In this document: positions 7,201 to 64,000 of the stretch, piece by piece
Numbering within the stretch: the first letter of the stretch is position 1
Layout: the number at the start of each line of letters is the position of its first letter
NCBI GenBank assembly: GCA_035221665.1
Contig: CM069145.1
Location: 27,590,001-27,654,000, forward strand
From: Okamejei kenojei
Taxonomy: Eukaryota
DNA length: 64,000 nucleotides
Direction of reading: 5' to 3'
Program-made: the position numbers and the translations under genes
Notes under the pieces: model-generated
Databases searched by the model: none
What the model saw: only the letters and a program-made list of their open reading frames with translations
Told to the model about the DNA's origin: nothing

Positions 7201-10200
7201 CATCTTACATCTTGGTGGGTGGGAGCAGAATTATATCTTGTAAGGGAAATATGCATGTAACACAGTTGCAATTGTCCTCCTCTCCATTCTAGGTTATTAA
7301 TTAAATAACAAATTGCATTAACAACTCAAGAAACAGGTAGCCACAAAACCAATAAATGCATAAAACTAATTGTGAACAATGATTCATGAGTGCTTAAAAT
7401 GCAGGTACCAATTTAATTCTTCACTGTGTTAACCTATTTATATAAGTGGTTGAGGGCATCGGTATGAGGAAATTGATACCAGTCAATTCAGCATTTGTAC
7501 AACAATTCACGCACTATCTTGTAGACTTATGGAAAATTAATGCTCAAAACAGCTCATAACATTTCATGTTGTTAATCACATTCAAGTTATGATCTTGTGT
7601 TAGATTTGTATTATTAAATCTGATCAGGCAACATGAAGTAAAGCATCGAAGATAGACGCAAAATCTTGGGGTAACTCAGTGGCACAGGCAGCATCTCTGG
7701 AGAGAAGGAATAGGTGATGTTTCAGGTCGAGACCCTTCTCCAGACAAAGCATAATTTTGAAAGAACAGTATTAGATATTTATACAACAGAACTTAATAAG
7801 AGCACCGAATGAAAGTGTACAGCTGTGAGGTTATTACTACCTACGATGGAAACAACAGATCACTTAAAAAATATGTGATTTTATAATACTTCCAGAACAT
7901 CAATTTAATGAATACATTTGTAGAAACTGAATGGTTTAAAGAAGGAACTGCAGATGCTGGAAAGTCGAGGGTAACCAAAATGCTGGTGAAACTCAGCGGG
8001 TGCAGCAGCATCTATGGAGGGAAGGAGATGGGTAACGTTTCGGGCCGAAACCCTTCTTCAGACTGTAGAAACTGAATGTTCAATGCCACAAGGGGAAACT
8101 TTAATCATCTTACTTGTATTACCAAAAACATGTATATTCCTTTCCCACAGATCTTGTAAGCATAAAGACACAGAGGAAAGAGAAACTGAATAAGGTGGCA
8201 TTCTGAAGGTGCCACAAGTTTTGCTTATTAAGAGGGCAAAACTTTCAGGATAAGCCTAATTTTCTCAGGTTCCTGTGGGTAAGTGTGGTGTTTTCCCAAT
8301 GCAGTGTCAGGACGAGTAACATGTGGTTACTTTATACCATTTAACAAACAATAAGGCTTGAGGAGAAAAGCATGCAGGGTGCTCAATAACCGGCTAACAT
8401 GAGGCTGGACATTGACTGTTGGGTTTGGTTAAAAAAATATCACACACTTTGGTCTTGCTCTGCCCATTGGCAGAACAATGGGGCAGCTCGTCGATCTGCT
8501 ACTACATGGCACCAGGGATCTGTGTTCAATCCTGGTCTCCAGTGCAGACTGTGTGCAGTTTGCACATTCTCCTGGTGACAACATGAAGTTTCTCCAGGGT
8601 CTCTGGTTCCCTTCCACATCCCCAAGACATGCAAGTTGATAGATTAGTTGGCCTTTACAAATTGCCTCTGATGCATTGTGATAGAACCTGCTGGGAAGGG
8701 CAGATAGCCGATGGGAATGTAGGGAGAATAGTTTGGGGAAATTCATTTAATTTAGTTTTAATTTAGAGATACAGCATGAAAACAGGCCATTTGACCAACT
8801 GAGTCCATGCCAACCATCAATTACCCATTCACACTAGTTCCGTCCCACTTTCTCATCCACTCCCTGCACATTAGGGACAATTTAACAGATGCCGATTAAC
8901 CTACAAATCTGCATGTCTTTAGGATATGGGAGGAAACCAGAGCACCTGCATGAAACCCACGCAGGCGCAGGGAAATCGTGCAAACTCTACACGGAGGGCA
9001 GGATTGAACCCGGGTCTCTAGCGCTATGAGGCAGCAGCTTTACCAGCTGCGCCACTGTGCTGCCCAAAATTAGTTGGAAAATGTGATCACTCTGTGAACA
9101 AGCTTAGACTCGAGGGGCCAAATGGCTTCTTTCTATGTCATGATGGATACAGAAATGTGGATATGGTCATTGCACTTGAAAACTACAAACGGTGGTACTT
9201 CAACAGCCACATGACTCAATGTTCCTATCCATAATGGATTCTGCCTTTTGCCTGGACTGCCAGTTACTTTTTTAATGGGGCATTAATTCAAGTCATCACC
9301 AGATTCTCCACACCTCATCGCCGTTTGATCTGAAAGATTCCCCCTAACCACCCAAACATTTGAGGATCAAAAACTGCAAAATACATTGAAGCAAACCAAA
9401 TTTGCAATTTGCACTGTGAAATGAAAATACCTAAAATGTTCTTCTTTGAAAGTCGGTAGATATTGTACAGACTCATGCTGTGTAATTTAATCCTAGTTTA
9501 AAAATATACTTAAGTGTTCTTTTTCTAGGCTTATTTGTCCAGCTCAAGGAATGTGAACATAACCAGATATGCACTCTATTTACAGCCATTTTTCTATGAT
9601 TGCAAAATGGTGTATATTTTCCACAGAAAATACAACAGTTCTGATAAAAATGTTAATTCTCTTTCTCTCCATGGATACTGCCTGACCTGCTAAGTGTTCA
9701 TGACATTTTCTGTCCTATAGTAGAGAAATAGCATAAGAAAAAAAATTGGGGCAGTTAACATATAAAACATATATCATATCATTTAATAGCTTACATCCAC
9801 TGCCTGGTTATAACTAATCTTGGCTTGTATCATTTCGGGAGAGTCAGTAACGCTAGTAAATTTCAGGTCACTGGGATATTGCCGATATTTTCTCTGTAAG
9901 GTAAAAACATAAAATCAAAATTTGATGATAAATATTAATATTGAACATATGGTATTGTATAACACAGGTTATTTCCAGCCCCAATAAGAAATTATAGACC
10001 TAAAAGATTAATTCTGCCTCTCTCTCCATTAACGCAACCGCATCTATTGAGGAGACACACAAAATGCTGGAGGAACCCAGCGGGACAGGCAACATCTCTG
10101 AACTGAGGAATGGGTGACCTTTCGGATCGAGACCCTTCTTCAGGCGTCCCCAGCTACAAAATGTGTAAAACCAAATGCATAAAAGTTTATTGCTATGTTT

Positions 10201-13200: not shown

Positions 13201-16200
13201 TAAACTGAAATACTATAATCTTACTTAATTGAATCCATGTTTTTCGTGGGATAATCTTAATGCTGTCAACATTTTAAGGCTGTTACAGCTTTGTGTATGT
13301 GGTAAGATGACCCAAACAAAGTTATAGATAATTAGGTTAGAACATTAGGGGAGGCCTATTCATCAGAGAAATCAGAGCATGAGGAATACTTACTAAAGGA
13401 AAATAAAAAGTGAACATGTGGGAACTGCAGAGAAGTCCCCTTTCATTATGTTGCAGACTTTCTGATCTATATATAGAATCATGCCAATAGTGTGATCTTT
13501 TCATATTCTCTAACAGATCTATTGTCCAAACTTAGTTGGAACCTTGAAAAATGTGACTTGTACATACAGTATTCAAATACAGTGAAAGTAAAATATATAA
13601 AGTCAGTACTTGCTCCACTGGCAAACATTCCAAAAACACTGTTATCTTACAAGGCATGTTTAAACTGAACTTCAAAAGGAATGTATGTAGAAAGGAACTG
13701 CAGGTGCAGATTTATATCAAAGATAGACACAAAGTGCTATCTTCCAGCCAAAGTGCTGGAATAACCAGAGTCTGAAAAAGGTTCCCACCCCGAAAACATT
13801 ACCCTCCACAAATGCTGCCTGATACGCTGAGTCCATCCAGCGGTTTGTTTACTACTTAACCTTCTTGCTTTCCACTGAAGTGACCTACTGGTACAAAGCA
13901 TGGAAACAGGCCCTTCAGCCCAACTCATGCATGCCAACCAAGAAGTTTTCTTGTGCTAGTCCCATTTGGCCCATATTCTTCTAAACTTTGACGATCCATG
14001 TATCTGTCCAAATGTCTTTTACACATCGTAAATGTACTCAGCTCTACCACTTTCTCCGGCAGCTCATTCCATTTTATCACCACCCTCTGAAGAAGGCTCT
14101 CGACCTGAAACGTCACTCTTTCCTTCTCTCAGAAATGCTGCCTGTCCCGCTGAGTTACTCCAGCTTTTTGTGTCTATCTTCTAAAAATGTTGTCGCTCAG
14201 GCCCCCTGAAAATCTTTCCCCTCTCACCTAAACTCCAATCCTTCTATTTTTAGACTCCACTGGCCCGGGAAAAAAAGACAGTGACCTATATCCCTAATGA
14301 CCTAAAGACCTGATCTATATCCCTAATGATTTGAGATACCTCTATAAAGGTCACCCCTCAACCTCCAATACTGCAGGAATAAAAATCCCCAGCCTACGCA
14401 GTCTCCCCTTATAAACCAAGCCCTCCAGCCCCAGTGACTTGCAGCTTTAATCTGCTATAGCCAGGCAGGGAGATTCCCCACCATACGTCCAGCAAATTTG
14501 TGCTTTGCTCTCAAACTCCAACGTCGGAGTAAATTCACTGACACTTGCATGTGTAAATGCACACTTGCTCACTTGCAGTCTGGCATGCAATTGATGGCTT
14601 TTCTCAGCAAGTTACAGCCCAACTCATGCAACCTCATGCTAAGGTCTTTTACCAAATCATTGTAATCCAAGAATATCGACTGATCAAAAAACTTTCTTTT
14701 GCAATGTAAAGTACATAACCATGATAAACAGCACAAAATAAAATTAGCAATTGTGTTACTCACATTACTTTGAAGAGCATATGCTTTTTTAGCCCATTCA
14801 GTTTTCATATCTCCGGCGAGGTTGGTGTACTGGTGGTATTGATGTTTGTAGCCCCTGTCAGTGGCCAGACTCTGCGCTCTTTTTGCATGCACCAGTTCCA
14901 TCATATCCATTGTGAGATGGATATTGGTCTTGGTTGCCTCCGATTGCTTTCTGTACTCCAGATCGCTCTGCAGCCTGGAGGCTTGGATAGAATGGGCCAG
15001 CTGAGAATCGCCTGCTGCCTCCTTCACTCCAATCAACTTGCCCTTTAGTTTCTCGTATGCCTCCCTGTACTTCAGCTGTTAAAACAATTTGTAAAGAGGT
15101 TAATAAGTGAACTGCCCTGACTTTATTATCTGCCACGTGTAATGCAGGCATGAGAAATGAATAGCAGATTATGATCTGCCTGCAAAGTTTTTTTTTAAGT
15201 GCAATAACAAGGAACTGCAAATGCTGGTTTGTACCAATGAAAGACACACAATGCTGGAGTAACTCAAAACACTGGAACAGATGGGTATCTAAACAATGGT
15301 GAACTGCAAGCAAACCATAATGTTGTGCGTTTACCAAAAATCAAGATTTTATTCCTGGTATAAAGATAATCCTTTCTGAACATTTGCAATGTTGGACCAA
15401 GGATGATGGCTTCACTCATCCTAATAATTAACTCAGAGAATTTCTGCTCATCCAGTCCTCATAATCAGACAACACAGGCTGACAACCTGGAGGCAGTGAA
15501 TGGTTCACAAGAGCCAGTGCACATTTTCATGACTAAGAGAGTACATTTGAGTTACCTCCTACCTTTAGAAAATAGATGAGGAGGAATTTCTTTAGTCTGA
15601 TGGTGGCCTAGTCATTGGGTATTTTTAAAGCGGAGATTGATGGATACTTGATTAGTCAGGGTTGCAAGGGTTATCAGGAGAAGGCAAGAAAGTGGGGTTG
15701 AGAAGGAAAGATAGATCAGCAATGATTTAATGCCATAGTAGAGTCGATGGGCCAAATGGCCTACTTCTGCTCCAATGACATTAACTTATATCGGAGAAAT
15801 GTGAATCACCTGGACTTTTACATTGTCTCCTATTAAAACAACTCCTTTTGTTTTAATTTCAATTAAGTTCATTTTAAATAGTAATATGCACTATCCAGGC
15901 AAATAAAGAAAATGAAAGATATTCAGCATAAGAGGTGTTCACATTGGCAAAATTAATGGTGTGTCAAAGTGCTTGGAATGTGTAACTTACATCACTCGCA
16001 AGATCTCTTTTTGCCTTTGCTTCCAGAATGGCTAAAGCATCCAAGCGCAGTTCAAAGCTTTTGCCTTTCTCTGCCTCCCAGTGACTCTTGTAGATTTTCT
16101 TGATAAAGCATAAATTGTAGAATAGTTTCAGTTAATTGTGCCCTCTGCTAATTAGAGTTTACATCATTCAGGTATAGAAGAGAACCATCAGGTACTCATC

Positions 16201-19200
16201 TCGTTCCTGACTAACCCCAGGTAAGTCTTGATTTAAGGTCAGCGGGGAATTTCTACGGGAATTTTCCCAGTTTCCAGTGCTAACACAGGCAGGGGAGCCA
16301 AAGTTACGCTGTTTTTTTCCCCCAGGTTTCTCTAGCTCTTCCACCAAAATTAAGTAGATGAACAGAGCCAACAACGGGAATTTATTCCTCAGTTTTGATT
16401 TTGCCTTTCTATACAAAATTCAACCTCACAGTGTAAATACAATCACAATTAAATTGGACAGTTCTGAAATTAAACCAAAACTACATAATTGTCATCAGTT
16501 TGATTCTACTTATGCGGAGAGGGAAACACAAGCAGAGTCCATTATGTTTGGACTTTATTTGGCTTATCTGTGTAATGAAGTGCTACCTTATTTTTTCCAT
16601 TTCACTTATCTGCCTGTGCAGTGCACTAGATGTGACCAAGCAAGTACTTTTGTTCCAGGGTACAGTACTCCAACATTGCTTTATTTATGCACTGAAATTG
16701 CTCAGATTTATATGTTAATTTATACGTTTTTAATTATACCAGTTAATCTGCTGTGGTGTCACTCAAGGTACTGCCAATTTAAAAGCAACTTTTTCTGAAG
16801 CACAGCCTACGAATGTCTCCCAAACTTAAAATTATTTTTGATTTCCCCATCTTTTTATTTCTATTTATCTTCCTCCCCTTTCTGACCACTCTCTTTCTCT
16901 CTCGCTCTGTCTCTCTCCCTCATATCACCTTCTCCAGTGCACACACCCAACCTGAATACACTGTCATTGTGTTTCTCTATATATTTGTCCTTTAGTCATA
17001 ATTCCCCCAGAGTTTAGTGGGCATGATACATGATTACCAGGTAAATCCCTTCCAAATGCTCATGAAACTCACCCCCACCCTTCAGGCGCCCACCACCCTT
17101 CATCTTTTACCAACGTAACGTTTGGATTACCACTCCCTCGCCACTAGCCCTGACCTCCCTAGGATCTTGGACATTTGTGAAACTTTAGCACCACGCCGAT
17201 TATCAAGATTGCTTAGCAATTGCTATTTCAACCTGTCATTTAAGCAATGACAAAGAATTTCTTGACCCCAGTTTCTTTATTACTTCAGATTATAGTTTGT
17301 AAACAACGTATTTTGTTTGTGAACTTCTGTACCATGGAACAGCAAGATATTTACCTGAATCAAACCAATCAACACAGTGCTAATGGACTGAATTAGCATT
17401 ACAAGTATCATAAGTTCAAATCCCTCCGTAACTACATGTAGGAAATATGAAATTATATTAAAAACTAATTATTCCTCTATTGTCTTCCAAGAATGGAAAC
17501 TTATCCATGCTAGTCTGTGACTGCAACCCTATATCCCACAAGTTACTGCCAACAGCTTCTGAAGTGACCGAGAAAACCAGTGCACTACAAGGCCAGTACG
17601 TTCCAAGAACAACTATAATTAAGCACAAAATTCACCCTGTGTCTCAAGGACAAATAATAGCATATTTCCACCAGGAGGAAGCAGGATTACGTGTACCTTC
17701 AGTAAGTTGCTCACAAGGACAAGCAAACAGAATAGCAAACCATTGCAGTCTTCTTTGGAGGAGATGGTAGGGGACAGCACAATGGTGCAGCAGTAGACTT
17801 ACTGCCTTACAGCGCCTGAGGCCCAGGTTCGATTCTGTGCTGTCTGTGCGGAGTTTGTACCTTCTCCCCGTGACCTTGTGGATTTTCTCCGGGTGACACG
17901 GTTTCCTCCCGCACTCCAAAGAAGTACATGTTTGTAGGTTAATTGCCTTTGGTAAAATTGTAAAAATTGTCCCTGGTGTGTAGGATAGTGCTAGTGTAGG
18001 GGGCTCACTGGCCGGCGCTCACTCCGTGGGCCGAAGGGCATGCTTCCGCGCTGTAACTATAAAACTAAAACCATTGATCAAAAGCTAAACCCATTATCAT
18101 CTGCACTTTGTAATTTCAGCTTTGAAAATCATTTGTTACTTACATCACTTAAGTGTTGAGCATTTGCCTTGGCTTGCATGAACAATGGCTCATCTTTGCA
18201 GATGCTGTACTGATGAAGACTCTGTTCACCCATTGCTTTGTACATTAGCTGCATAACGTAGAAGAGCAAAAGTGGTCTTAAATAAAATGGCATGTAACCT
18301 TCGCCAATGCCAATGCAATAATTTTACACTTCAATCATTTTTAAAATGTTTGCAGCATTTTCGGATTTAATTTCAGATGTCCAGCATCTGCAGGGCCTTT
18401 TTTAATTTCCATCTGGCATGTTTCCATTACATGCTCACGTTGACTGTGACTAAGTACATTCAAGATTGCAGCTTTTAAAAATCTGAATATTAAAAGGTAC
18501 TAGAACTGTATCTAACTGCCCATGCTTGACAGGCAGTAAATTGGCATAAACACTGAAAATTAAAAACACTCATAGAATTTAGAAACAAGGAACAGCAGAA
18601 GTTGGTTTACAAAAAAGACACAAAATATTGGGCGAACACATCGAGTCAGGTAGTATCTTTGCTGAACAGGGATAGTGACATTTCTGGTTGGAAGCCTCCT
18701 CAAATGTGAAAAAGAGTCCCCTCACCTACCCATGTTCTCCAGAGATGTTGCCTGGCCCACTGAATTACTCCAGCACTTTGTGTCTTTTTTTTAATTCATT
18801 GAAATTGTTTGACTATTGTTTGCCATCATCCTCTCCTGTACCACCTGCAGGTGGCAGGTGGTCCAACGTTAGAAGTTCTTTGTCTACCTCCTTAGTGTCA
18901 ATGACGACTAATTTCCTTCAATGTAGGAAAGGCAAAATTGCAAAAACCTAAGGAGACATAAAATGCTAGATATCTGCAGAATTCTCCTTTTATAAGCACC
19001 TTTACCTAGTCCTTTTTATCACAGTCAGCAATGCTGTGGCAAAATATTTTTGCATTAGCGAACTGGTGGAGCTAACTAGATTCAGAACTGAAAGAGTTCA
19101 GTTACAAGCACCTGGTTGCTTGAACAAAATTTATGTATGAAGCTATGAAAAACAATAGGAATAAAATCAAAAAAAAAAATCTGAAACTTTTAGATGTTTG

Positions 19201-22200
19201 GAAGTAAACACTCAAAACTTTTTCTTCCAAACTTTGCCTGTTTGATCAGCTTTGATTGTGTCAGTGGCATCCATCACTCTTTGAAATACAATGTTTTTTC
19301 ATAAATGATCTCTCTCTGCCTATGCAGTACTCACTTCACTTTGCAAATCTTGGCTCCTCTTGGCATGAATAATCTGTGGAGTGTCTGCCACACTTGTGAA
19401 TTTTAACGCATCAACTCTTTGTCGGTATTTTTTCTGCAAGTTAAAAGAGTACACAATTTACTCTCTGACAATAGGGAACTTACTTTAGAAAGCAAAATAA
19501 AATGGTATATACATGATTCTAGTCAAATGCATGTGAGTGTTCAGTGCTAAAATAATATTAAATCAGTTAATCATGATCGCATTCTCTTTCAGTCTTTCGT
19601 TAATTGTCAAGTAAAGTGAAGTCGAGATAATTGCCATATCGCAAGTATGCTGAGGTACAGCTACAATGAAATTCTTGCTCCCAGCAGCATCACAGGCACA
19701 TGGACTCATACAAAGGACAGAAATACAATTTACACATAAATTGCACATCAATTCTTCAAACAGTAAAAAGAAAGAAAACTGCAAAAATCAAAACATTAAT
19801 GCAAAATACAATTAGAAAACAAGTCCAAAATAGTGTTCTGTCGTTGCTGTTGAACTGATTATTCCATTATTAGGACAGTTATCAGATGTAGATTCATTAT
19901 CGCTGGTAGAATTTACCAACAATTACCCCCTCCCCGCCTCAAATCACCCTAATTATCCCATATGATTTCTTTTCAATACCTTTTCCAAGTGGCTGCACTT
20001 GCACTTTGCATTAACCTGTGCATTAATCTGTCTCTGCAACGTAACCTGCTGTCTACCTGCCAGGCAGGAATGTAAACCTGTCTTGCTGATAGTTAGGATT
20101 ACTTACTCCTGACCGATGAAAGACAAGACAATAAATGCGTCCAAGCAGCCAATATCGGAACCTATAATTTAAGTTGCAATTTCATGCGGACACCAACAAT
20201 TGCTGCTGAATACCTTTCACAATCTGCGTAGGAAGGAACTGCAGATGCTGGTTTCAACCGAAGATGGACACAAAAAGCTGGAGTAACTCAGCTGGACAGG
20301 CAGCATCTCTGGAGAGAAGGAATGGGTGACGTTTCTGGTCGAGCCCCTTCTTCAAGTCTCGACCCGAAACATCACCCATTCCTTCTCTCCAGAGATGCTG
20401 CCTGTCCAGCTGAGTTACTCCAGCTTTATGTGTCTACCTTTCACAATCTTATACTGTCGTTAATCTCCAAAATTTGGAAGGCCAGAGATATTGCAATCGT
20501 TAATTTTTATCGAGTATCATTGGATTGAAATGAAAGGAATAGCCAGTTAACATGACAAGGAAAATCCTAGCTCGCCTGGCCAATCTGTAATGCACACATA
20601 TGCAGAGAGTGTGATGCAATTCTCTTACCATCTCAACAATCCTATGATAACTTGTGTAGTAGAACAGGATATTATACAGTAAAGCAGTAAAACTGCAATG
20701 AAAAGATGCAAGCATACAAAAAAAAAAGAACACTGACTTCAGAAGCGTGCATAAAAGATGGAATTCAGAGCAAACAGTAGGGGCAGCAAATTAAAGTATT
20801 GGTGGTGAAAGTGAGGGGATTAGGAGGTTAAGTCAAGAGTCTGAGGTATTTACAGCAATGGCCTGAACAGCAGGTTAATCTGGCAGCAGATCTGCCACAT
20901 TCCTTCTCTAGCGCTCTCCTAACGCAAATCTCTGGCCCACAGTCATTACAAGATTGGTGGATGATCGTTAAAGGACGCAGTCTTGCTGATATTAAACAGA
21001 GATGAGAAAACGTTAAATCAAACTATCAGACTGAGTGTCAGGTTAAGGTGCAGCTAACCACAACATAAATCTAGCCACTAACTTCAATATTAATAGCTCC
21101 ACTGCGGTTATTGTGTAGCTGGAACCACAAATCTCTCAGTTTTCCTTAGAAAGGAAAAGTGTTCATAATTCTCTAAGATAAAACTGAAATCTTGATCATG
21201 AAAATATGTTCTCTCATTCTAAGTAACAGTGTTTTTGTATTTTCAGTCCAAGCCTGTGGAATGTAACATGTTATCTTTCAGAAATAATTCTGATATATGC
21301 TTTTTGAAACCCATGTTCATGAGCTCTTCACAAATAAAATGTGAAATGTAATCAGACCTCTGTCCAAAAACAAGTCTAAACAGGGAATGACCCATGGAAA
21401 TGGATTGTCTCGAAGAATTCCCGGCTGAGTATCGGTCCAGATGCTGCTATAATTAGGAATCTAGCAACTTATTATGGTTTTAAATACGCTCTTATGAGTA
21501 ACGATGTAGGTAGTCACATGTAGAAATGTTTCAGAACTCCTGATTTGAAAGTATGCAGACATCAGCGGCCAAATCAGTGTTTAAAAATTGCTTGTGGGTT
21601 GATTTAATGGGATCATACCTATTCATCTTAATAAAAACTCCTCCTGAAATATACTGCTTCAAAACCTGACAGCGACAGAGTTTCTGGTCATGTTTTATTA
21701 CTTTATATGAGTACCTTGATTATATTTCCTACAATTTTTGAACTTGACCCACTAAGCCTGATTTAGAGTCTAGTGGTAAATTAAAATATACTCCTATACT
21801 GTATTGGAGTTCCATCCCATGTAGTTTAATTCACATAATTTCTTACTCTATTTTAAATTAATTAAGTTCATTAATATCAGCCACAAATATCCCCACGCTT
21901 CACGGGCACTTCACATTAATTCAGCCAAACCTTCCTCTATGTGTTCTAAAAGGGGCTTATGTCAACTTGCTGGCAATTCAAGTGTTGACAGCAAGTGGCC
22001 CCAACTCATCTACGCCCCCAAGGTGACCTCAGGTTGACCAGCGTAACTGTGGCAGTTGTACCTATTGCTCCCAAATTAATATTTTGTGAATATCTCATGC
22101 CACGATTATCCATTGTATCAACGGTTCCCAATGTTCTGAATGAAAATCTTACTTGTTCACATTGGGTAAAATATACGCCCCTCATAAATAACTGATGACC

Positions 22201-46200: not shown

Positions 46201-49200
46201 GAGGTCCTGGGCATTGTGGTGGCCATGTAGTGGAGTGAGGAAACCCTGCCCCACTCTGTGAGATTCCCTCAACCAGCAGCCCGCCCAGAGTCCACTGTGA
46301 AAGGACATTGGTCTTTAACATTAATTCAATTTCTTCTTCTAGACACTCACCTGCTGAGTCTTTTTAAAGGTAAAAAATGTATTTTTGGTACTGCAAGCTA
46401 AAAATGCTAAAGGCTGTTTGTTACATTGTTTCATAGAGGTAAGTGCCCATTGAAGCAATTGCTTGTCAATTTCTATGCCTTATCAATTTCAATAGCTTCC
46501 ACGGTATAACCAGCAGCCTGTGTTCTTAAACGGGCAGTCCGCTATAAACAAAATCCATTATAAAGAGGTCTGTAATAACGAGTGTTTACTGTACTTGCTT
46601 TTACCCACCAAATACTTACATCACTTGCAAGATCGTTGGCTCTCTTAGCATTGTTGTACGCTGGTGTGATCATTGCAGGGAAACTCCCTTTCCCCCTACC
46701 ATCCTCAAAATCTGCAGAAAACTCAGGCTGCCAAAGGAGAAAAATACATATTGACAATTCCATTCAAAGGCAATTTTATCTGACACTTCACTGAGATACA
46801 CCAATAACAGCAGTAAATCCTCAAAATTTGACCCGTGTAAGAAACCTTACATTTCTAACTGATGCCTCATTAAGTAAAATATGCACATTAGTTAAGCTCA
46901 ATTAAGAGCCAAAGCTTTTTGATCCAAATCAAGTTACCCAAGAAGAAGACACATACTGGGGATCATTATGGTTTGAATTATTGTTTTATTTCTAGTTTAA
47001 ACCTGCCCATCAGCCCACGAGTCTCCACCGACTAGCAATCACCCCGTACACTAACATTATTCTACACACTAGGGATCATTTTACAATTTTTACTGAAGTC
47101 AATTAACCTACAAACTTGAAGGTCTTTGGAGTGTGGGAGGAAATTGGAGCACCCAGAAAAAACCCCACAACTGTCAAAGGGAGAACATACAAACTCTGTG
47201 CAGATAGCACCCATAGTCAGGATTGAACCTGGGTCCCTGGCGCGGTAAGGCAGCAACTCTTCCACTGCGTCATAGTGCCACAGTCTTAATTAGGGGATTG
47301 GAGTAGTAATGTCCTTTGGGTTAATCGTGTATTGTGGAGTGGGACTGAACACCCACCTTCTCCTGGGCATGTTTGGTTTTAAGTTTGCTTTTTTGTATAT
47401 AAATGTGTGTTTTGGTGGCAGTCACTGTTTCGGCTGCAGAGGCTGCTGAAGAATCCCGAATGCAGCAGGCCCTGCTTCTGCTGCACCCTCCCATATCCAA
47501 TTGGACATGAGCTATTAAAATAGGCAACAGTGTCAGCATTTATACAACACCAAAAAAAACTGTGTCCTGTGTCAGCCAACTATCACTCGAAAGAAAACTG
47601 CTATGCCCAGTATCGGCATGAACTATTTTAAGTAAGCACTGTGGACAGGGTGTTGATCCTTTAAAATGTGTCTGATCCCATCAGATTACCTCCATCAAGT
47701 AACCACAGCAAGATAGAATTACTACTTCCTTGCCCTGAAAAATATTCATGTAGTTTTAAAGTGAGGCGGAGAATGATTTCACAGAAATTTGAGGGGAAGT
47801 TATTTCATACAGAGGGTGGTGGGTACATGGAGCGAACTGCCAGAGAACGGTGTTAAGCCAAGGGACAATGTCAACATTTAAAAGACATTTGCACAGATAC
47901 ATAGACGGAAAAGATTTAAAAGCATATTGGCCAAATCTTGGTCATTTGGGCTAGCTTTGAAGGGACATGTTGGTGTGCATGGACGAGTTGGGCTGAAGGG
48001 CCTGTTTCCGTGCTGTATGACTCCATGTGAATAAATGATCTGGATCAAACCAAATAGTAGATTGCATTTCTGTAGAGATCCACTGGCTAACAGCATTAGG
48101 CATTTATGACCTCTGCCACTGTCCGACAGTGACTGTGGATTGAAACGCGGAAGCGAAGAAGGTGCTGGAGATCAGATGCCTCTCTGTCACTTGACCGCGT
48201 GGTTAGATGCCTCTCTGCTACCTGACTTGCCAATGATGACAGAAGAGTGCCAAGTTATAGTGCACTGAGAAGCCAACACACTTCATGTCTGATCCTTCAC
48301 TTCAACTCCAGCCATGCGGAACAACTCCACTTACTATAGACAAGAGACAATAGACAATAGAGGTAGGAGTAGGCCATGCGGCCCTTCGAGCCAGCACCGC
48401 CATTCGCTACGATCATTGCTGATCACCCACCATCAGTACCCTGTTCCTGCCTTCTCCCCATCTCCCTTGACTCCTCTATCTTTAAGAGCCCTATCTATTG
48501 GACATGTGTCAGAAGGAACTGGTACTGGAATGGAGTTGTTGACCCAATTCATATCAGTAAATGGTTTGGAATTAGTTTCTTTCTTTTAGTTATTAATGTT
48601 TATAATTAAGATGTGTGTGTTTTTTCCATTTATTGAGTTTAAATCTTTTTCATTAATTTAATTCATTTAATTGTTTTAATACCTCTGCCCCCTGTACTTC
48701 ATGAGATAGCGATGGCAGGTAATCTATATCTTAAACCGGTCAGAGGTAAAATTCATAGTAGTTGTGAGGATGGTTGTGGAGATGGGGGGGGGGGGGGGGG
48801 GGGGGTGAATACAAGGTGTGCGCTGAATCAAGCATGAGCAGCAGTTAGTCTTGTAAACACAACATTTAACAGTAATAGGCTGGATAATGCAGCCCTCTCT
48901 CTCCATCCCTCCCCCACCCAAATCGTCCTGCTAGTTTTACTGTTTGTGTCCCCCCCCCCCCCCCCCATTATCACCTGCTCCACAGCCAACAATGGACTAT
49001 TGTGGGCTCTTTGCCCACTGGTGCCAGCTCTGATCTGTTCTGCAGCTCTTCAAACCTCTAGTTTCCCTCTCCCCTGACTCTGTCTGAAGAAAGGTCTCAA
49101 CCAAAAACGTCACTTATTCCTTCTCCCCAGTGTTGCTGCCTGACCCGCTGAGTTAGTTACTCCAACATTTTATGTCTATCTTTGATTGCTTTAGATGCTT

Positions 49201-52200: not shown

Positions 52201-55200
52201 GTTTGTGCGGGGTTTGTATGTTCCCCATGTGACCCCCCCCCCCCCCCCCCCCCCCCCCCCACCCCTCCACTCTCCCACATTCCAAGACGTGCAAGTCTGC
52301 AGGTTAATTGGCTTATGTAAATTGCCCCTGGTGTGTAGCCTTCGAAAGTGGAATAACACGGAACTAGTGTATGGGTGATCGATGGTTCGCGTAGACTCGG
52401 TGGCTTGAAGCGAATCTTCCCACATTGTATCTCTGACATTTCCAAATCTGAAATGGACTTTAGCCAAAGATTGCAACACACATTCGGACTCTTTAACTCT
52501 CTACTCTATCATTTATTGCCCCATAGTTCTGCCCTTCTTCTGGAAATTATAAGCATGCTAGTTTTATAACTTGCTCTTGTCCCAATGAAAGACCATCAAC
52601 CTGAAATGTTAAGGAAGGAACTACAGATGCTAGTTTACACCGAAGACAGACACAAAATGCTGGAGTAATTCAGCAGGACAGACAGCATCTCTGGATAAAA
52701 GGAATGGGTGACATTTTGGGTCGAGACCCTTCTTCAGACCATCTATCTGTCTAGTTGTCTAACCTGAAATGTTAACTTGGTTTTCTTCTCCACAGATGCT
52801 ACATGTCTTGCTAGGTATTTCCAGCATTTCCTATTATTATAATTTCAGATTTCCAACATCTGCAATTTATTTTATTGTCAACTTGGCATTAATTCCGTTT
52901 AAGTTGCAGTTATAGAAGCTGGGAGATTGTGACTAAACGGGCTCAAAGAAAATGACTGCAGTAAACAAAGGAACATACTTAGGAAACCACTTATGAAAAC
53001 AAATGTTGGAGGTTGGTGTTGGAGGCATTGCCTTGAACAGAGTATGGTAAATTAACTAAATCTAATGCCCTGGTTCAAATGTAACATAAAATTGATTGAA
53101 TTGATTGATAGATACGGCATGGAAACATGTCCTTCGGCCTATCGAGTGTATACTGAACATCCATCAACCACTCACATTCTACATCATCCCACTTGCACGT
53201 TCACTTTCTACACTCTAGGGACAATTTAGTGGCCAGTTAACCCAAGATGATACAAGGAGAACATGCCAACTTCACACAGACAGCAACCGAGGTCAGGATT
53301 GAACCCGGGTCTCTGGCGCTGTGGTATAGTAGCTCTACCAGCAGCGCACTGTGCCGCCCTATTGAAGATGTTCAAGTGGAAATTCTATAAAACATTAAAA
53401 ATGAACAACTAGGATTTACATGAATATCTGAAAGCTTACTATACTCAATCAAATCTTGCACCATCTTTCACATTCTGCTCAACTCAGGATTAGACATTAC
53501 AACCGTAATGCTCCTGGAACACATTATACAAAATATCCTGTCATTCACTGCAAACTGTTGTCACAGCAAAAAAAAACATTTATAAGAATATACTGAAACA
53601 AAACATGCAGTTTGGAGTACTTAACCCCCGCAAGAGATTATGATAGAACTCTCTGGCTAGATTTGTAAGTGAGGAGAATATTAAGAAAGATGCTATTCAA
53701 TTCCATGCATATATTTCAGTCAGGAAATTGAATTGATTGAAAGATACAGCCTGTAGACAGTACCTTTGGGCCACGAGTCCCCACCAACCATCGATCGCCC
53801 GTTCACACTAGTTCTACGTTATCGTACTTTCATCCACTCCCAACACACTAGGGACAATTTACAGAGGCCAATTAACCTATAAACCCGCACGTCTTTGGGA
53901 TGTTGGAGGAAACCGGAGCACCCGATGTGAACCCACACAGTCACAGGGATAATGTTCAAACTCCATACAGACAGCACCAGATGTCAGGATCGACCCCGAG
54001 TCTCTGGCACCATAAGGCAGCAGCTCCACCAACTGTGTCACTGTATAGCCCAAAGGATTACAAAGGAATTCATTGTGCTCAACTTCAACAATTAAAATCA
54101 TTTTCATCTTCTGAAAATAGTATTTAGTATTAGCCTAGGTTCTCCTTAAAAAAACATTACTTTCAATTAACTATTTGACAGCAACCCTGTCCAAGTTTGG
54201 CTGATTGTCAAGAACTCTGCCTAGACTTCTGAGTGGAAGATCAGCAAACCAAAATACATCACGCCAGGCCACGTTAATGTGGTTAGCCTAGTTTAATTTG
54301 GACATGTATTCAGGAAATTCGTTTCATCCCTAAAACCGGTCAAATATGGAGATATGTTGGACAATAATCAAGATGGGTTGGTTAGTAAGTTTGCAGACTT
54401 TGCCAAAATTGGTGGAGCTGTGAATAGTGAAGAAGATTGGCAAAGTATCAGCTACAGCAATGGGAGGAGAAATGGCAGAGCAAGTGTGATGTGCTGCACT
54501 TTGGGAGGTTGAATATCAGGGGAAAGTGAATGGCAAGACCCTTAAAAACATTGATGTACGGGGGGATCTTGGGGTCCAAGTCCATAACTCCCTGAATGTG
54601 GCAACACACAGCTAGATAGAGTGATGAAGAAGGCATATGATATGCTTGCATTTTTCAGTCAGAGTGTTGAATTTAAGAGTCAGGAAGTCATGTTACCACT
54701 ATGGAGAACTTTGGTTGGGCTGCATTGGGAGTATTGGACACAGTTTTGGTCACCCATTACAAGAAGGGTGTGAAGGCTTTGAGAAGGGCTCAGAAGAGGT
54801 TTACCTTAATGCTGCATGGATTAGAGACTATTAGCTATAAAGAAAGTTTGGACAAACTTGCATTGTTTTCTATGGCATGTCGAAGGCCGCCGGGAGACCT
54901 GATAGAAGCATATAAAATTATGAGAGGCATAAATAGGGTAGACGGTGATAACCTTTTTCCCAAGGTTAGATGTTAAAAGCTGGAGGACATAGCTTTGAGG
55001 TGAGAGGGGCAAAGGTTAAAGGAGATGTGCACGGCATGTTTTCATTACACAGTAAATGATAGGGGTGGTGGTGGAAAGAGATATGATAGTGCCATTTATG
55101 AGGCTTTTAGACACATGGATATGCAAGAATAGAGGGATATGGATTATGTGCAAGCAGAGAAGATTAGTTTAACTTGGCATTATATTTGGCACTGGTATTG

Positions 55201-58200
55201 TGGGTTGAAGGGTCTGTTCCTGTGCTGTGCAGTTCGATGCTCTATGCTTTATGAAAAAATATTTTCTGCAGCCACGCTAGGATCTACAGAGCCTGTAGTG
55301 CAGAGACCAGAATTGAAAGGAATACTCCAGTCATATATTCCTTGCCTTTATTTAAGAAGTGCTGTATCCTATTTGTTGTACCAACAGTTCCCCCAGTATG
55401 CCGTGGCATGTTCAAAGATTTACAGACATAGACGCACAGATTGTTCTTCCTCAAGACTAAGCCATTCACCCGTCCTTATTCTTTCCGACAAAGTGTATCA
55501 TCTCACACTTCATCAAATGTTATTGGCCATTTATCTACCCATTCTGCCAGCCTATGTCCACTCCATTACTGTTACTGCACTCCATTGATTGCCACAGCTC
55601 CATGTTTGTGCGTCGGGTTTTGGATAACTGGCTCAAAAGCTTGTTCCATTACAGCTTTGTTCACTCTGGCACTCAGATAAAATTATTACTATCTATTCAA
55701 TAATTAAACGACCAAACTGTTACAGCAGTGCAAGAATGAATATCAATCAATATTGTTATGAGGCGCAAGTATATTCTTTATATATATTGTCCTGCATCAC
55801 TCACGAGTGCACTATATTCTGTATAGAAATTAAATCCTTATCGTTTAGCAGTACGCGGCCTATAATTCTTTTAGTTTAGTATAGAGATAGAGTGTGGGAA
55901 CAGGCTCTTCAGCCCACCGACTCCACGCCGACCAGCGATCCACTCTCCCTAACACTATCCTACACACACACACTAGGGACAATTTAACATTTTACCAAAG
56001 TCAATTAACCTACACATCTGTGCATCTTTAGAGCATGGGAGGAAACTGGAGCACTCGGAGAAAACCCCCGCAGGGAAAAATATAATTAGGCTGCCGATCT
56101 GAGCCTTAAAGCATAATTAAAAAAGATCTCTGGGTACAACAGGGCATTACACACATTTCTTAATGCTGAAAATATTAACTAAATAAATCCCCCTTCACTT
56201 ACTTCACTGATAGCTTTTTGCTTCTGGGCAACTTGTACAACCTCTGGACTCATAACATTAGTAGAATACCAACTGTTATCTCCTCCATAAGTAGACTGAT
56301 AAGCATTCTGTAATGTTAGAAAAATGAGAAAAATACTTGATTTATAATGTGACAAATCTTAAAATGTACAACATAAAAATGTAATTAACTTAAAAAGAGC
56401 AAGTAGTCATATGTTACCTCGCTGATAAGATTCATATTTTTCTGGGCTTGGAGAATGCCTGGTGGGAGGTGATAGGACTCCTTTGTTTCATCCCATTCTT
56501 TAGTGTATTGCACCTGCAAACCGGAGTATTTTTAAAAGCTCGTTCATATTTGTTTTTATGTGTAAATAAGTCCGCAGAAATAAAAGGGGAAACACTGAAC
56601 ATTGAAACATTGCAGGGGTCACATCCAATTTTCAACCTTTAGTGCTCGGGTATAGACACTCAAGCTCTAGGGTTGAGGGTCTACACTCAAGCCTCAACAT
56701 TGAGCCCTACATTTTAATAAACTTGTCAGCAAAATTGCAAAACAAAGGACAGGCCTCCTCTTTCACTTTAGATTTTAGGGTGGCACGGTGGCGCAGCGGT
56801 AGAGTTGCTGTCTTACAGCTCTTGCAGCACTGCGGACACGGGTTCAATCCCGACCACGGGTGCTGTCTGTAGGGAGTTTGTACATTCTCCCCGTAACCGC
56901 ATGGGTTTTCCCTGAGACCGGTTTCCTCCCACACTTCAAAGATGTACAGGTTTGTAGGTTAATTGGCTTGATAAATGTAAAAATTGTCCCTTGTGTGTGT
57001 AGGATAATGTTAATATGCGGGGATCGCTGGTAGGTGTGGACTCAGTGGGCTGAAAGGCCTGTTTCTGCGCTGTATCTCTAAATTAAACAAAAAAATCAAA
57101 TTAATTGTTGCAAATGTCAGGTGGTAATATATGATTTTGATCAATAGTGTAAAATTGATGATAATTAGTGTGAAGCCCATTTTCCATCTCACCAAAGTTT
57201 TATTATTATTGACCATACAGGATCTGACATTCTACTGGGGCAATGCCTGTTCACATCTCTGCTGCAGATTGCATTAATGTTCATGAGCTCACTGAGAGGA
57301 CAATTCATCGTACACCACTCGACGATTAGCAGGACTATGGTAAGGAAGAATGGAATAACAATGAACTGCTGGTTTACACCAAAGATAGACACAAAATGCT
57401 GCAGTGACCCGGTGGGTCAGGCAGCATCCCTGGAGGACAAGGATTACGAGTCTGAAGAAAGGTTCCAACGCCTAGCATTGCCCAAGTCTGAAGAAGGGTT
57501 CCGGATTGAAACATCGCCTATGTTCTCCAGAGATACTGCCTGACCTGCTGAGTTAATCCAGCATTTTGTGTCTATCCACAACAAGGAAGTACTTGGTTCC
57601 ATCTGAAATAACTGCACCGTCTGTACCCTGCATCTCAATAAAGGGAGGATTTCAATGTGGAAACTCAAAATGAATTGCTTTGAAGGGACAGGTCGAGGCA
57701 CTACCATACGCACCATCCCAGGTACTCACTTAGGTTGCTTGATGGATTCCCAACCAAAGTTGTGGCATCGTGTAATTAAAGCATAATTATGATGCCCTCA
57801 ATAGACAATAGGATCAGGTCACGTACCTTACTGGCGAGTCGTCCAACAGTACAGGCATGCTCTAGTTGCTTCGATCTTATATCCCACTGAAAAACTGATT
57901 TGTATTTTTCGGCATCTTCACGGTACTTAATCTAAATACAAAAATTCAGCAGACAGTTTTATGATAATGAATTTTACAATGTATTTTAAGGATCCTCTCT
58001 ATAGTAACGTTCTTGTCACAATTTATCTTCATTTCATCACAAAAGAGTCGTTATCCTTGACAATCAATGGCTTTGCCATCGTGTATCAATGGTTCACTGG
58101 CACCATCGTTAATCCCCATTCCATCAATACCCTGGGGGGATGCAAAGCAGAAGCCTCCACGTGGGCAATGCTGACGACAGGAACTGTACCACAGTGACTG

Positions 58201-61200
58201 ACTGAAGTAGCCAATTCTGCAACCACTGTCAACCGTCACTGACCGATCGGAAATACATGATGTACAAGACGGCCGGACACGAGGAAGACGAAGAATATCC
58301 TGGGATCCACCATTGACCAAAATCATTACTGGATTAGCCATTATTGCTAATCGATCAAGTCACTGACTGGAGATCCTCATTTCTAGTAACAGGAGGCCAC
58401 CTGGCCCATCGAGTCAATGCTGGCTCTCAGAGGGATCTTATCTGGCCCATTCCCCCATTTAGTTCCCTGCAATCCATTCTCTCTCTCTCTATCTCTCACA
58501 CTCCATCAACCCCACCTAAGCCACATACCTTCCAGAGACATTAGGGTTGATTGACAGCAGTCAATTAACTTACTTACAAGCACTTGGCACGTGAGTGGAA
58601 ACTGCAGTACCCGAGAAATATCACACGGCCACACTGTAATGGTACTATCTCCACACAAACAGAAGCAGAGCCCAGGATCGAACTTGGATGGCTGGAACTG
58701 TGAGGCAGTACCATTGTGGTACTCTCCCGACTCACCTCCCGACTCACCAAAGCCTTTCCACTATCTTTACATGATGAAATAATCCCCACTTGCTGGTAGA
58801 ATGCAGTTCCAACACCACTCAAGAAGCAGAAAAACATCCAAAGCATCACAATGTATTGGCACTCCATCAGCTATTCTAAAACTTCATTGCCTCCACTACA
58901 AAGGACCACATCTGCAGTTGTGCCATCTAGAGAACGTGTTGCCACAGATTGCCGAAGGTTTCTATTATCTAAATGGTGGCCGATTAGGAAAAGGGGAGAT
59001 GCAGCGAGACCTGGGTGTCATGGTACACCAGTCATTGAAAGTAGGCATGCAGGTGCAGCAGGCAGTGAAGAAAGCGAATGGTATGTTAGCTTTCATAGCA
59101 AAAGGATTTGAGTATAGGAGCAGGGAGGTTCTACTTCAGTTGTACAGGGTCTTGGTGAGACCACACCTGGAGTATTGCATACAGTTCTGGTCTCCAAATC
59201 TGAGGAAGGACATTATTGCAATAGAGGGAGTGCAGAGAAGGTTCACCAGACTGATTCCTGGGTTGTCAGGACTGTCTTATGAAGAAAGACTGGATAGACT
59301 CGGTTTATACTCTCTAGAATATAGGAGATTGAGAGGGGATCTTATAGAAACTTACAAAATTCTTAAGGGGTTGGACAGGCTAGATGCAGGAAGATTGTTC
59401 CCGATGTTGGGGAAGTCCAGGACAAGGGGTCACAGCTTAAGGATAAGGGGGAAATCCTTTAAGACCGAGATGAGAAAGACTTTTTTCACACAGAGAGTGG
59501 TGAGTCTCTGGAACTCTCTGCCACAGAGGGTAGTTGAGGCCAGTTCATTGGCTATATTTAAGAGGGAGTTAGACATGGCCCTTGTGGCTAAGGGGATCAG
59601 GGGGTATGGAGAGAAGGCAGGTACGGGATGATCAGCCATGATCATATTGAATAGCGGTGCAGGCTCGAAGGGCCAAATGGCCTACTCCTGCACCTAATTT
59701 CTATGTTTCTATGTTTCTATGTTTCCTCAACAACACTCCCCCCAAGCCAGCCATCTCTAGCACCAAGAAAATCAAACACTGTAAATGCATGAGATATATC
59801 CTAGTTTCCTACCCTGATGAGACCTGTTCTGACTTAGAATTCTCTCTCTGGTTTTATATTATTATGGGATCTACATCTAGCAACACCACATTGAGACCTC
59901 CTTCTTACATGGACTGCAACAGTTCGAGCAGGCAGCTCTACCGAGCAATTAGAGATGAGCAGTACATGCTGGTAATGTTCACACATGCTAAATGAAGGGA
60001 AAAAAGTTTTTTAATATAAATTATTTGTAATTAGCTCCGATGCTTGCCACATCTTCTCGTAGAGCTGTTCAAAGTTAAGTATTAGAATGTAATAATAAGG
60101 AGCTGCAGATGCTGGTTTATACCAAAGATAGACACAAATGCTGAAGTAATGCTGCAGATCTGAAGAAGGGTCCTGACCTGAAATGTCCATTTTCTTCAGA
60201 GATGCTGCCTCACCTGCTGAGTTACACCTGCATTTTATGTCTATCAAAGTTAAGTATTGTTAGCTTCAGAGTAACAGGTAAATGATATCATCTAAATTGC
60301 ATGGAATGAGTCAAACACTTCCTTTCAAATAATTCTGTCTGAAAGATGAAGATCAGTGCCAGGAGGCCATTACAAGCAAACTCACATTAGAAGAGCAAGA
60401 AAAACAAATAGATTTAGTAGAGAGCAGATTAGATGAAACAATGTAGCTAAAGAATTATCAATAGTTTTATTATTTTCATCTGCAAACATTGGTCTCACGT
60501 TTAATTAACAAAGAAAGAAAAAGAATTTCACTTCCAATAAATGGCCTCATATTGATAACATTCAACTTTAAACACACAAGTCTATATTGACAGCGTAGGT
60601 TTTAGGCGAGCATTAAAGAAAGATTACTATTTCAAAAACAAATTTCCTGATCTCAATTAATTCAATTTTTAAAGTACGATTCTTGTTCCTATTATATTCA
60701 GTTACTGGTATCAGTCAGAAAGTATATTGGAAAGTATTAGATAATTTTAATTTATTTTTTGTAAGTTAACACAAAAGAGATGTGGTCTTATTAAAACGGA
60801 AGGAAAATAGACTGTATTTAAAGAATTAAAATTCAGATTCCAATTACTAGAGAACAATTTCAACAATACCTGAACTAAAGTTCAACTGTAGTATAAGATA
60901 TTAGTGGTTAAAAATAATGTTATACCAATACACATTAATGGTAAAGGACATGCTAAGGTGATCGTGAACGTTTTCGTTGTACACAGTATATAAGGCAGAA
61001 TATGTTCCAGACAAAGTTTTTGTGATTTTCCTTTCAAATCTACAACACCAACATAATAAGAATCTGTTCCATTATGCAAAGTTATGCAAAATTAATTTAG
61101 TATTTCTGGACCAGATTGCTGATTTGTGGTTGATAGCAGCAAAACATTATGAGGAGGAATAAATAACGATAAGTATAGCTGAGTCTATGATTTTAACCTT

Positions 61201-62239: not shown

Positions 62240-62299
62240 TTTGATTGTGGTTTAATGGGACAACGAAAAAGCTTCCCCTTTCCCTTGAGTTGTGCTTCG

Positions 62300-62670
62300 T
62301 GTGCCCCAACTTTTATCCTTCCTCTGTGCTGGAACCTGTTGCTGGCAGTCAACTGCTTTATTTCACAGCTGGGACTGCCTCGTCCCCCGTTCTTCGCCTA
62401 TTGGTTGAAGCTGCCCGTTGCCGGGCCCTGATCTTCAGGATGCAGCTTGTGTGTGGTCACCAGAGCTGCCAACCACAAGGCGCTCACATGTGCGAATTGA
62501 ATCAGGTTTAAGTCGGGAGAGTGACTGGCCCTCATGAATGTCTCGTCCCAAAATAGGATGGAGTGATATGTTGCTAAATACAATTTGACGTCAACCCCAC
62601 GCAGAAGGGAACTGACAACATTTTATGGGCACAGTAAAAATCAGATAAATAAGGCCCATATTTTGGAGCA
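62300..62670 (-). promoter_or_regulatory. Putative NRAP proximal muscle promoter
   Basis: Perfect CArG CCAAAATAGG 62548-62557; CRE TGACGTCA 62586-62593; GATA AGATAA 62643-62648; CArG-like 62619-62628 and 62657-62666; E-boxes CAACTG 62350-62355 and CAGCTG 62366-62371; CCAAT (minus) 62400-62404; TATA-like GATAAAAG (minus) 62310-62317; repeat-free up to a LINE tail at ~62672. Confidence 0.65.
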
Positions 62671-64000
62671 CATAGAAACATAGAAATAGGTTTCTAGGAG
62701 TAGGCTATTCGGCCCTTCAAGCCAGCACCGCCATTCAATATGATCATGGCTGATCATCCAAAATTGGTACTACATTCTTGCTTAAGATAGACACAAAAAG
62801 CTGGAGTAACTCAGTGGGACAGGCAGCATCTCTGGAGAGAAGGAATGGATGACATTTCCCTCGATTCCCCCATATCCCTCGATTCTGTTAGCCCTAAGAC
62901 CTAAATCTAACTCTCTCTTGAATACGCTCGAGTACAATTCAGTTTCCTGTGAATTTTCTTTCAAAACGCTTCAAAATCGTCCAATTGTTTAGTAAGTGAA
63001 TTATTGAATCATCTTTTACTTATCAAGTGAACATTATAAACCATATGATTATTCTTATAGCAACTCAGTTAATCAACCAATGTAAATAGAAACATTGGAT
63101 GATAGTATTCACCTCATCTTATCATTACAACATGACCTTATTCAAACCAATGGAGTTTAAAGGAACAAGAACAAATCAGTAACTTAATAGCATATTTCGA
63201 ATTCAACTTTTTTTTAATGAAAGATTTCTACTTGTTTTCTTTCATCTCCAAGAAGACAATGTTAGATCTCTGCATATATTCTGCATTGGTGTTACTCAAT
63301 TTACATACTTCAATCCTTCCACTATTTTAACGGGATTCGTTCTTCTGTAGAACTTGGAAGTGATTAATAAAACTGTCATGCTATCCATGATTCATTTAGG
63401 ATTAACATTCATGTTTCATGATATAATCATAGCCCCTAGAATGAGTTTACACGTTAAAGTGTCTATAATAATTGTACGGTGTGCATAGATCAATTTGGAT
63501 TTGTTTCTAATGATAGTGATTTTAGAAAATTAATATGCTCTTTTAACTTTTATTACACCAATCCACTTTGCATACATTAAAACAACCATTGACCTAAAAT
63601 AATAAGAATTACAAATGAGTAAAAATTCCAGCCTGTGTAGCATATGACTTAACAGGGAGCATGTAGTAATTTACAGAATATGATTTAATTGAGCTAGTGT
63701 CAGTGAACTATATGGGCATTGGACACTTATTCATGAATAACCTGCTCCCAAACGCTCAGTTAAATTTGGCAGCACTGTTCATTTCCAGATTTTATTCCAG
63801 CCTCAGTTCAAAGACAGAATAGCTGAATTCCAGTGGCAATCTGAGAATGTTTTGGCATCTGAAGAAGGGTCTCAACCCAAAACTTCACCCATCCCTTCTC
63901 ACTAGAAATGCTGCCTGTCCCGCTGAGTTACTCCAGCTTTTTGTGTCTATCTTCATGATAAAACTGAAATAAAACACAAAATGCTGGATATACTCAGCAG

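What the first reader, a model, noticed from the sequence alone, without database searches (positions are those of the whole stretch)
7647..63950. Abundant family of short Penelope-like insertions carrying a minimal hammerhead ribozyme motif
Seen: about 20 copies of a 100-260 bp repeat whose conserved centre reads CTGAAGA-A-GGGTC-NN-GACCC-GAAAC-GTC-acc. This is the hammerhead core (CUGANGA, stem II, GAAA, UH) with a vestigial, palindromic stem III (ACGU). Stem II varies while keeping pairing (GGGUC/GACCC, GGGUU/GGCCC, GGGUC/GAUCC). Known: Penelope-like elements carry minimal type I hammerheads that are thought to cleave as dimers. Inference: this is a non-autonomous, retrozyme-like family mobilised by a Penelope RT/GIY-YIG protein. 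At about one copy per 3 kb here, it may be a very high-copy ribozyme family in this genome. The class is known; whether this skate/ray family is characterised or active is not something I can determine.
Basis: partly seen in the sequence, partly recalled or inferred. Interest (0 to 1): 0.7.

Follow-up and report, generated by a model that had tools for sequence, protein, structure and literature searches.

The report
Ribozyme-bearing stubs of Penelope retrotransposon
These short repeats are the ribozyme-motif-bearing ends of a known kind of jumping gene (a 4-kb Penelope-like element), left as an estimated million mostly decayed stubs; their fixed start and end points likely mark where the element's RNA begins and where copying starts.

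Summary
The repeat and its minimal hammerhead motif are real: 33 hits in the window, 0 in a reversed control. Only 3 of 16 core-spanning window copies keep an intact core. It is not a stand-alone retrozyme family: longer copies run upstream without a break into a GIY-YIG + zinc-finger + RT ORF of a ~4.0-kb Neptune-type Penelope-like element, and all five sequence clusters have ORF-linked members. An 860-kb sample gives 0.42 hits/kb (~1.1 million genome-wide, ~140,000 intact cores). Copies carry target duplications and have two preferred 3' ends. Head-to-head pairs (66, versus 7 tandem) carry exactly one tail in 53 of 66. 5' ends pile up just before the motif (171 of 209), not at the cleavage site (4 of 357). 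Best reading: run-off products of two-site, two-strand priming on uncleaved RNA that likely starts just before the hammerhead. Distant relatives show compensatory stem changes, so the motif is selected in the master elements, while inserted copies decay neutrally. Helix I is only 2 bp here; cleavage is untested. This scan already reported the same family and reading on other DNA, including this genome. New member of a known kind.

The parts
7644..7746 (-). solo stub, hammerhead to first 3' end point, core mutated
7939..8067 (-). solo stub with intact hammerhead core (C3 at 8061) and tail, flanked by a 17-bp target duplication that ends 2 nt before C3
10046..10145 (-). solo stub, core mutated at 15.2
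13686..13849 (.). head-to-head pair, left arm tailed, right arm untailed
14086..14181 (+). solo stub, stem II broken
18586..18789 (.). old head-to-head pair, one tail
20228..20440 (.). head-to-head pair, left arm tailed, right arm untailed; 15-bp target duplication at 20211-20225 and 20435-20449
23825..23928 (-). solo stub in an intron next to a nebulin-repeat exon
26901..27110 (.). head-to-head pair, right arm tailed
28325..28411 (-). decayed solo stub
29194..29292 (-). decayed stub with ~24 nt of upstream pLTR-like sequence
31642..31745 (-). solo stub, core mutated
32781..32876 (+). decayed solo stub
40629..40688 (+). stub truncated 3' of the hammerhead
49081..49186 (+). stub extending ~28 nt upstream into the pyrimidine-rich pLTR; the only window copy with >=25 nt of upstream element sequence
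52611..52829 (.). tailed stub (52611-52740, minus) with an adjacent, more diverged opposite-strand arm
57365..57578 (.). head-to-head pair with 39-nt spacer, one tail
60095..60245 (.). head-to-head pair, one tail, 15-bp target duplication
62775..62858 (-). stub truncated inside the core
63858..63962 (+). solo stub, core mutated

Best explanation
The repeats are short, target-duplication-flanked copies of the pLTR end (minimal hammerhead plus tail) of an autonomous ~4.0-kb Neptune-type Penelope-like retrotransposon, likely made by its RT/GIY-YIG protein copying an uncleaved RNA that likely begins a few bases before the hammerhead. Shown: sequence continuity with the ORF, the tandem unit, target duplications, two 3' end points, one tail per inverted pair, a 5' pile-up before the motif, none at the cut site, and neutral decay of inserted cores. 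Inferred: the endonuclease makes staggered nicks on both strands and RT starts inside the RNA at one of two sites about 30-40 nt apart. RT then runs off the RNA 5' end, probably the transcription start at an initiator-like TCAGT. Extending one strand gives a 95-135-nt solo. Extending both strands from different sites gives a head-to-head pair with one tail. The ribozyme is maintained in master elements, probably needs a dimer or the element protein, and plays no part in making the stubs.
For: Copies picked by their upstream sequence run continuously from the hammerhead into GIY-YIG and RT. L100 holds a 3,993-bp tandem unit with the ORF start ~160 nt after C3. A 769-aa open frame hits Pfam RVT_1 (1.9e-6) and GIY-YIG (0.0022, under the curated cut-off). 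31 of the 150 scored GIY-YIG hits are 100% identical, among 137,521 candidates. ORF-linked copies fall in all 5 clusters (4, 13, 47, 6, 2 hits, some counted twice from overlapping loci). Target duplications of >=12 nt: 17 of 65 pairs (shuffled mean 0.2) and 19 of 159 unpaired copies (shuffled 0-1). 3' ends are bimodal: 162 of 357 at model positions 88-110, 128 of 357 at 127-134. Exactly one tail in 53 of 66 pairs, expected 32.8, p=3e-7. 171 of 209 copies reaching the motif stop within 25 nt upstream (5.9%/nt versus 0.14-1.9%/nt inside); only 4 of 357 start at the cut site (0.26%/nt). This parallels the anole PAc element: both strands cut and extended, two internal RT starts that define the tail, ribozyme not needed for insertion and active only with protein (PMC11167929).
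Against: No RNA 5' end could be observed: all runs were contigs. The 5' pile-up is spread over several bases, not one. The TCAG-T-CTGA palindrome at that spot could also stop or re-prime RT. The largest window cluster is very short-biased (5 of 77 long, against 17 of 44 in the youngest), which a non-autonomous source would also give. No fully intact ORF was seen among the fetched loci: L096 is 5'-truncated, L100 and L103 have frame breaks. Only 5 of 28 relatives with an ORF end showed the motif downstream. PAc is a Poseidon-clade element, so transfer of its mechanism is inference.
Confidence: 0.78

Rival explanations
1. Most stubs come from ORF-less short copies that are themselves transcribed and mobilised in trans: a SINE- or retrozyme-like non-autonomous family.
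For: Fixed 5' start, own target duplications abutting the start, 72 of 77 copies in the commonest window cluster lack upstream sequence. Three copies on one contig (C23) share ~100 nt of upstream sequence found nowhere else by that search, which may point to a local secondary source. The motif region is present in three RNA-library runs (DNA not excluded).
Against: Every cluster has ORF-linked members. Tandem units, which define animal retrozymes, are 7 of 79 adjacent pairs. Junctions of inverted pairs differ from copy to copy. No start at the cut site.
Confidence: 0.14
2. The 5' boundary is an RT stop or re-priming point set by RNA/cDNA structure (the TCAG-T-CTGA palindrome and the hammerhead), on ordinary long transcripts, not a transcript start.
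For: Head-to-head junctions often fall at this palindrome or in stem II; 0 of 51 paired arms extend >=25 nt upstream. Palindromes at inverted junctions are described for rotifer elements (PMC3846280).
Against: 120 of 158 unpaired copies stop there too, with the target duplication directly adjacent. Folding gives no stable hammerhead helix to stall on (stem II probability <=0.2; z -0.93 and 0.08).
Confidence: 0.06
3. The hammerhead-plus-tail segment is an exon: splicing from a donor at the ORF start to an acceptor just before the motif removes the ORF or back-splices a ~160-nt circle, which is then retrotransposed.
For: Donor-like and acceptor-like sequences sit at these places; 3 genomic copies at 2 loci carry the exact GT-AG junction. 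In D. virilis an intron ends at helix I (PMC4209133).
Against: 1,610 copies hold the donor-side sequence and 0 of 30 examined have the exact junction. Joins from this region to the motif are scattered: 3 exact among about 23 such joins in the 100 of 115 matches listed (my reading of the strings). No such joint appeared among the listed contig joints (lists were cut).
Confidence: 0.02

Closest known systems
EN+ Penelope-like elements, Neptune/Nematis type (PMC8557442)
   Same: Single RT + C-terminal GIY-YIG ORF, zinc-finger-like linker, pLTR, partial tandems, adjacent inverted 5'-truncated copy, one-sided 30-40-bp tail, heavy 5' truncation.
   Different: Here most insertions are only the last 95-135 nt, with a sharp 5' boundary just before the ribozyme; about a million copies; ORF about 1,200 codons with a long low-complexity N-terminal part (L100, estimated across frame breaks).
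Minimal hammerheads of metazoan PLEs (PMC4209133)
   Same: Core, extra base between 9 and 10.1, G10.1-C11.1, palindromic CG at 15.2/16.2, mostly single or opposite-strand dispersed motifs attributed to truncated PLEs.
   Different: Helix I is only 2 bp (4-5 bp typical there, 2 bp in D. virilis); estimated ~140,000 intact cores versus ~4,000 (coelacanth) and ~9,000 (Xenopus) reported there by a different method.
PAc, Poseidon element of the green anole (PMC11167929)
   Same: Two internal RT start sites defining the tail, both strands cut and extended, ribozyme dispensable for insertion.
   Different: Other clade (no zinc-finger linker); there the ORF starts in stem II, here ~160 nt downstream. 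The genomic one-tail-per-pair count is from this family, not from PAc.
Animal non-LTR retrozymes (10.64898/2026.07.22.740005)
   Same: Short, non-coding, type I hammerhead, related to PLE pLTRs.
   Different: Retrozymes are defined by tandem units each with a full ribozyme; these copies are solo or head-to-head, continuous with an ORF, and mostly decayed.

Membership tests
EN+ Penelope-like element (Neptune/Nematis type) | Single ORF with RT and C-terminal GIY-YIG | tested here: met
   RVT_1 1.9e-6; GIY-YIG 0.0022, both just under curated cut-offs; 2,231 homologues at E<=1e-20 among 7,987 scored
EN+ Penelope-like element (Neptune/Nematis type) | CX2-5CxxC zinc-finger-like linker between RT and EN | tested here: met
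   C-x4-C-x2-C in the L096 translation; feature from PMC8557442 passages
EN+ Penelope-like element (Neptune/Nematis type) | pLTR in partial tandems, inverted 5' copy, one-sided tail | tested here: met
EN+ Penelope-like element (Neptune/Nematis type) | RT phylogeny within Neptune rather than Nematis | not tested
   no labelled reference sequences were at hand; Neptune is preferred because the bioRxiv paper reports only Neptune and Poseidon in vertebrates
Minimal type I hammerhead (min-HHR) | Core CUGANGA / GAAA / UH with extra base after A9 and G10.1-C11.1 | tested here: met
   42 motif hits in 924 kb versus 0 reversed
Minimal type I hammerhead (min-HHR) | Palindromic 15.2-16.2 allowing a dimeric helix III | tested here: met
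   CG invariant in 10 of 10 aligned sequences; 4-bp duplex of only -3.1 kcal/mol, not the predicted dimer minimum
Minimal type I hammerhead (min-HHR) | Covarying helix II and helix I | tested here: met
   Across 3 family copies and 7 relatives: score 0.689 versus 0.181 shuffled, 0/500, slid controls <=0.184. Helix II pairing was part of the selection scan; helix I was not.
Minimal type I hammerhead (min-HHR) | Helix I of 4-5 bp | tested here: not met
   only 2 bp in this family; 3-5 bp in most relatives
Minimal type I hammerhead (min-HHR) | Self-cleavage 3' of H17 | not testable with these tools
   needs in vitro assay; no genomic trace of cleaved templates
Non-LTR retrozyme | Tandem units each with a complete ribozyme | tested here: not met
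   7 tandem of 79 adjacent pairs
Non-LTR retrozyme | Non-autonomous unit separate from an ORF-bearing element | tested here: not met
   secondary ORF-less sources are not excluded
Non-LTR retrozyme | Circular RNA intermediate | not testable with these tools
   only assembled contigs were served

The most novel reading that the evidence does not exclude
A vertebrate Penelope element whose dominant product is a 'strong-stop'-like cDNA of the first ~100-130 nt of its own transcript. These stubs keep the RT-binding tail and internal promoter and so re-amplify as a SINE-scale, ribozyme-bearing family of about a million copies, some with protein-dependent cleavage inside host introns.
Probability: 0.15. 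Interest if true: 0.6.

Novelty: new member of a known kind. Interest (0 to 1): 0.3.

Why it matters
How Penelope-like elements insert is still largely open. This family gives a large natural record of end points that matches, in a second clade, the two-site, two-strand priming shown in vitro for one anole element. It also predicts a transcript start and a role-free ribozyme in stub formation, both easy to test. The ribozyme-bearing end alone covers 3.9% of the sampled DNA, so it matters for repeat annotation of cartilaginous fishes. The class, the motif and the insertion layout are all described.

Tried and rejected
Rfam scan: no hammerhead family matched. PDB sequence search with the ORF: 0 hits. 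C14 locus first taken for a tandem element is a local segmental duplication. Splicing or back-splicing: rejected, exact junction not enriched. Host exons spliced onto the motif: target duplications mostly abut the start; 4 of 28 tailed short copies had a duplication 16-600 nt upstream, of which L075 and L157 are explained by neighbouring inverted arms and L152 and L169 were not resolved. 5' transduction at L075: the 243-nt spacer is a 96% copy of DNA beside the target. Stem II variation among genomic copies as selection: rejected. Core more conserved than flanks: core non-CpG identity 0.94 versus mean 0.86, median 0.90, upper quartile 0.93 in the rest, so it marks invariance among masters, not selection on copies. 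Folding does not favour the hammerhead fold in monomer or dimer. No protein fold or complex job was run.

Full report
Observation. A profile from natural copies finds 33 hits in the window; a shorter first profile found 35, with 0 in the reversed window. 20 of 33 reach the start of the motif, 16 span the core and 3 of those pass an intact-core test. Rfam has no hammerhead match at E<=1. The window holds no fragment of the element's ORF. It lies in a nebulin-repeat gene on the minus strand; between 1037 and 27515, 10 copies are sense and 6 antisense to it, so sense copies are tolerated in introns.

What it belongs to. The own genome is 2.76 Gb. A search with an upstream-extended copy gave 30 loci in which shared upstream sequence runs from about 110 to more than 1,450 nt, through a pyrimidine-rich region into GIY-YIG and RT coding sequence. 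The GIY-YIG peptide has 137,521 candidates; of 150 scored, 31 are identical, so one subfamily is young. L100 shows a 3,993-bp tandem unit with the ORF start about 160 nt after C3; L103 is a similar full unit. L096 has a 769-aa open frame with RVT_1 and GIY-YIG hits and a C-x4-C-x2-C linker, the Neptune/Nematis mark (PMC8557442). No fetched copy had a whole intact ORF. Named homologues include shark and ray proteins at 63-74% identity.

How many. I sampled 86 stretches of 10 kb at round coordinates on 29 large contigs; small contigs were not sampled. They hold 357 hits, 0.415/kb (bootstrap 0.36-0.48), or 1.14 million extrapolated. Pairs count twice, so insertions are nearer 0.95 million. 43 of 192 core-spanning hits are intact, about 138,000 extrapolated. 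The segment covers 33,440 of 860,000 bases and ORF pieces 12,311.

Anatomy of insertions. Of 79 adjacent pairs (sample plus window), 66 are head-to-head, 6 tail-to-tail, 7 tandem. 53 of 66 have exactly one tailed arm, 9 none, 4 two; 32.8 would be expected with one (p=3e-7). 3' ends cluster at model positions 88-110 (162 of 357) and 127-134 (128 of 357). Target duplications of 10 nt or more (one mismatch allowed) flank 25 of 65 pairs (shuffled mean 2.0) and 31 of 159 unpaired copies (shuffled 2-9), and in unpaired copies mostly end 0-7 nt before C3. Of 209 sampled copies that reach the motif (1 dropped at a locus edge), 38 extend 25 nt or more upstream; a null of 80 random stretches gave 2. Loss there is 5.9% per base against 0.14-1.9% inside, and 0.26% at the cut site (4 starts). 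Loose contig ends in other runs fall at the same -4 to -1 positions.

The ribozyme motif. In inserted copies it decays neutrally: G12 is lost as a CpG and pair-breaking changes equal pair-keeping ones. In 80 metagenome loci encoding relatives, the same motif lies up- or downstream of the ORF; 5 of 28 loci with an ORF end show it within 600 nt, 0 in reversed control. I aligned 3 family copies with the 7 relatives having a 12-nt stem-loop II and the CG helix III; the other motif hits were left out. Covariation is 0.689 against 0.181 shuffled, and at most 0.184 slid. Helix II was part of the selection, helix I was not and still covaries. This family pairs only 2 bp in helix I, and folding does not favour the active shape. 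So the motif is a selected structure in master elements, and its activity here is unknown.

Mechanism. Shown: the end points, duplications and one-tail rule. Inferred from PMC11167929: staggered nicks on both strands, RT starting inside the RNA at two sites that define the tail, unprocessed RNA as template. Inferred here: RT runs off a transcript that begins at an initiator-like TCAGT (initiator consensus recalled, from no call; an Inr-like motif in a pLTR is noted in PMC3846280, an internal promoter in PMC2377424). Rivals are ORF-less secondary sources (0.14), a structural stop (0.06) and splicing (0.02). All 5 k-means clusters contain ORF-linked copies, but the commonest window cluster is 72 of 77 short, and three C23 copies share an upstream stretch, so secondary sources remain possible. 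The exact splice junction occurs in 3 copies at 2 loci against 1,610 copies of the donor side and scattered neighbouring joins.

Literature seen. PMC4209133: parts 1-2 of 4. PMC11167929: parts 1-2 of 4. 10.64898/2026.07.22.740005: parts 1-3 of 5; its supplements, which list one cartilaginous fish, were not seen and may bear on prior description. PMC8557442, PMC3846280, PMC2377424: search passages only. Searches for a description in sharks or skates gave 0 papers or listings I did not open. Repbase and Dfam could not be searched, so 'not in print' is not claimed.

Earlier scan notes. My reading was written before the look-up. Eight earlier notes, one on this genome, reach the same reading; a look-up by sequence found none. 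They are not independent support.

Verdict. New member of a known kind; interest 0.3.

Noticed in passing
window 1037-33082, minus strand: Exons of a nebulin-repeat gene (Pfam Nebulin in 5 of 5 tested frames; more exons by tblastn); the stubs lie in its introns in both orientations.
   Followed up: partly
L075:2122-2587: Young inverted pair with a perfect 15-bp duplication whose 243-nt spacer is a 96% copy of DNA just left of the target (1839-2085), suggesting a template switch onto local DNA during insertion.
   Followed up: partly
L004:1343-1498, L295, L296 (all contig C23): About 100 nt upstream of the motif is shared (79-80%) by only three found copies, all on one contig; possible local secondary source or rare pLTR variant.
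   Followed up: partly
L184-L213, L062:3000-3400: Many copies run past the tail 30-250 nt into the ORF start and then jump to a pLTR or hammerhead, forming internally deleted mini-tandems with scattered junctions.
   Followed up: partly
window 406-584, 8878-8987, 12082-12381, 37331-37934, 58963-59695 and other copies: Other dispersed repeat families, by recall a shark SINE and CR1-like LINE 3' ends; names come from no call.
   Followed up: no
L265:2460-2510, L266:235-285, L272:290-340: Distant relatives also have TCAGT a few bases before the hammerhead core, as this family does.
   Followed up: no
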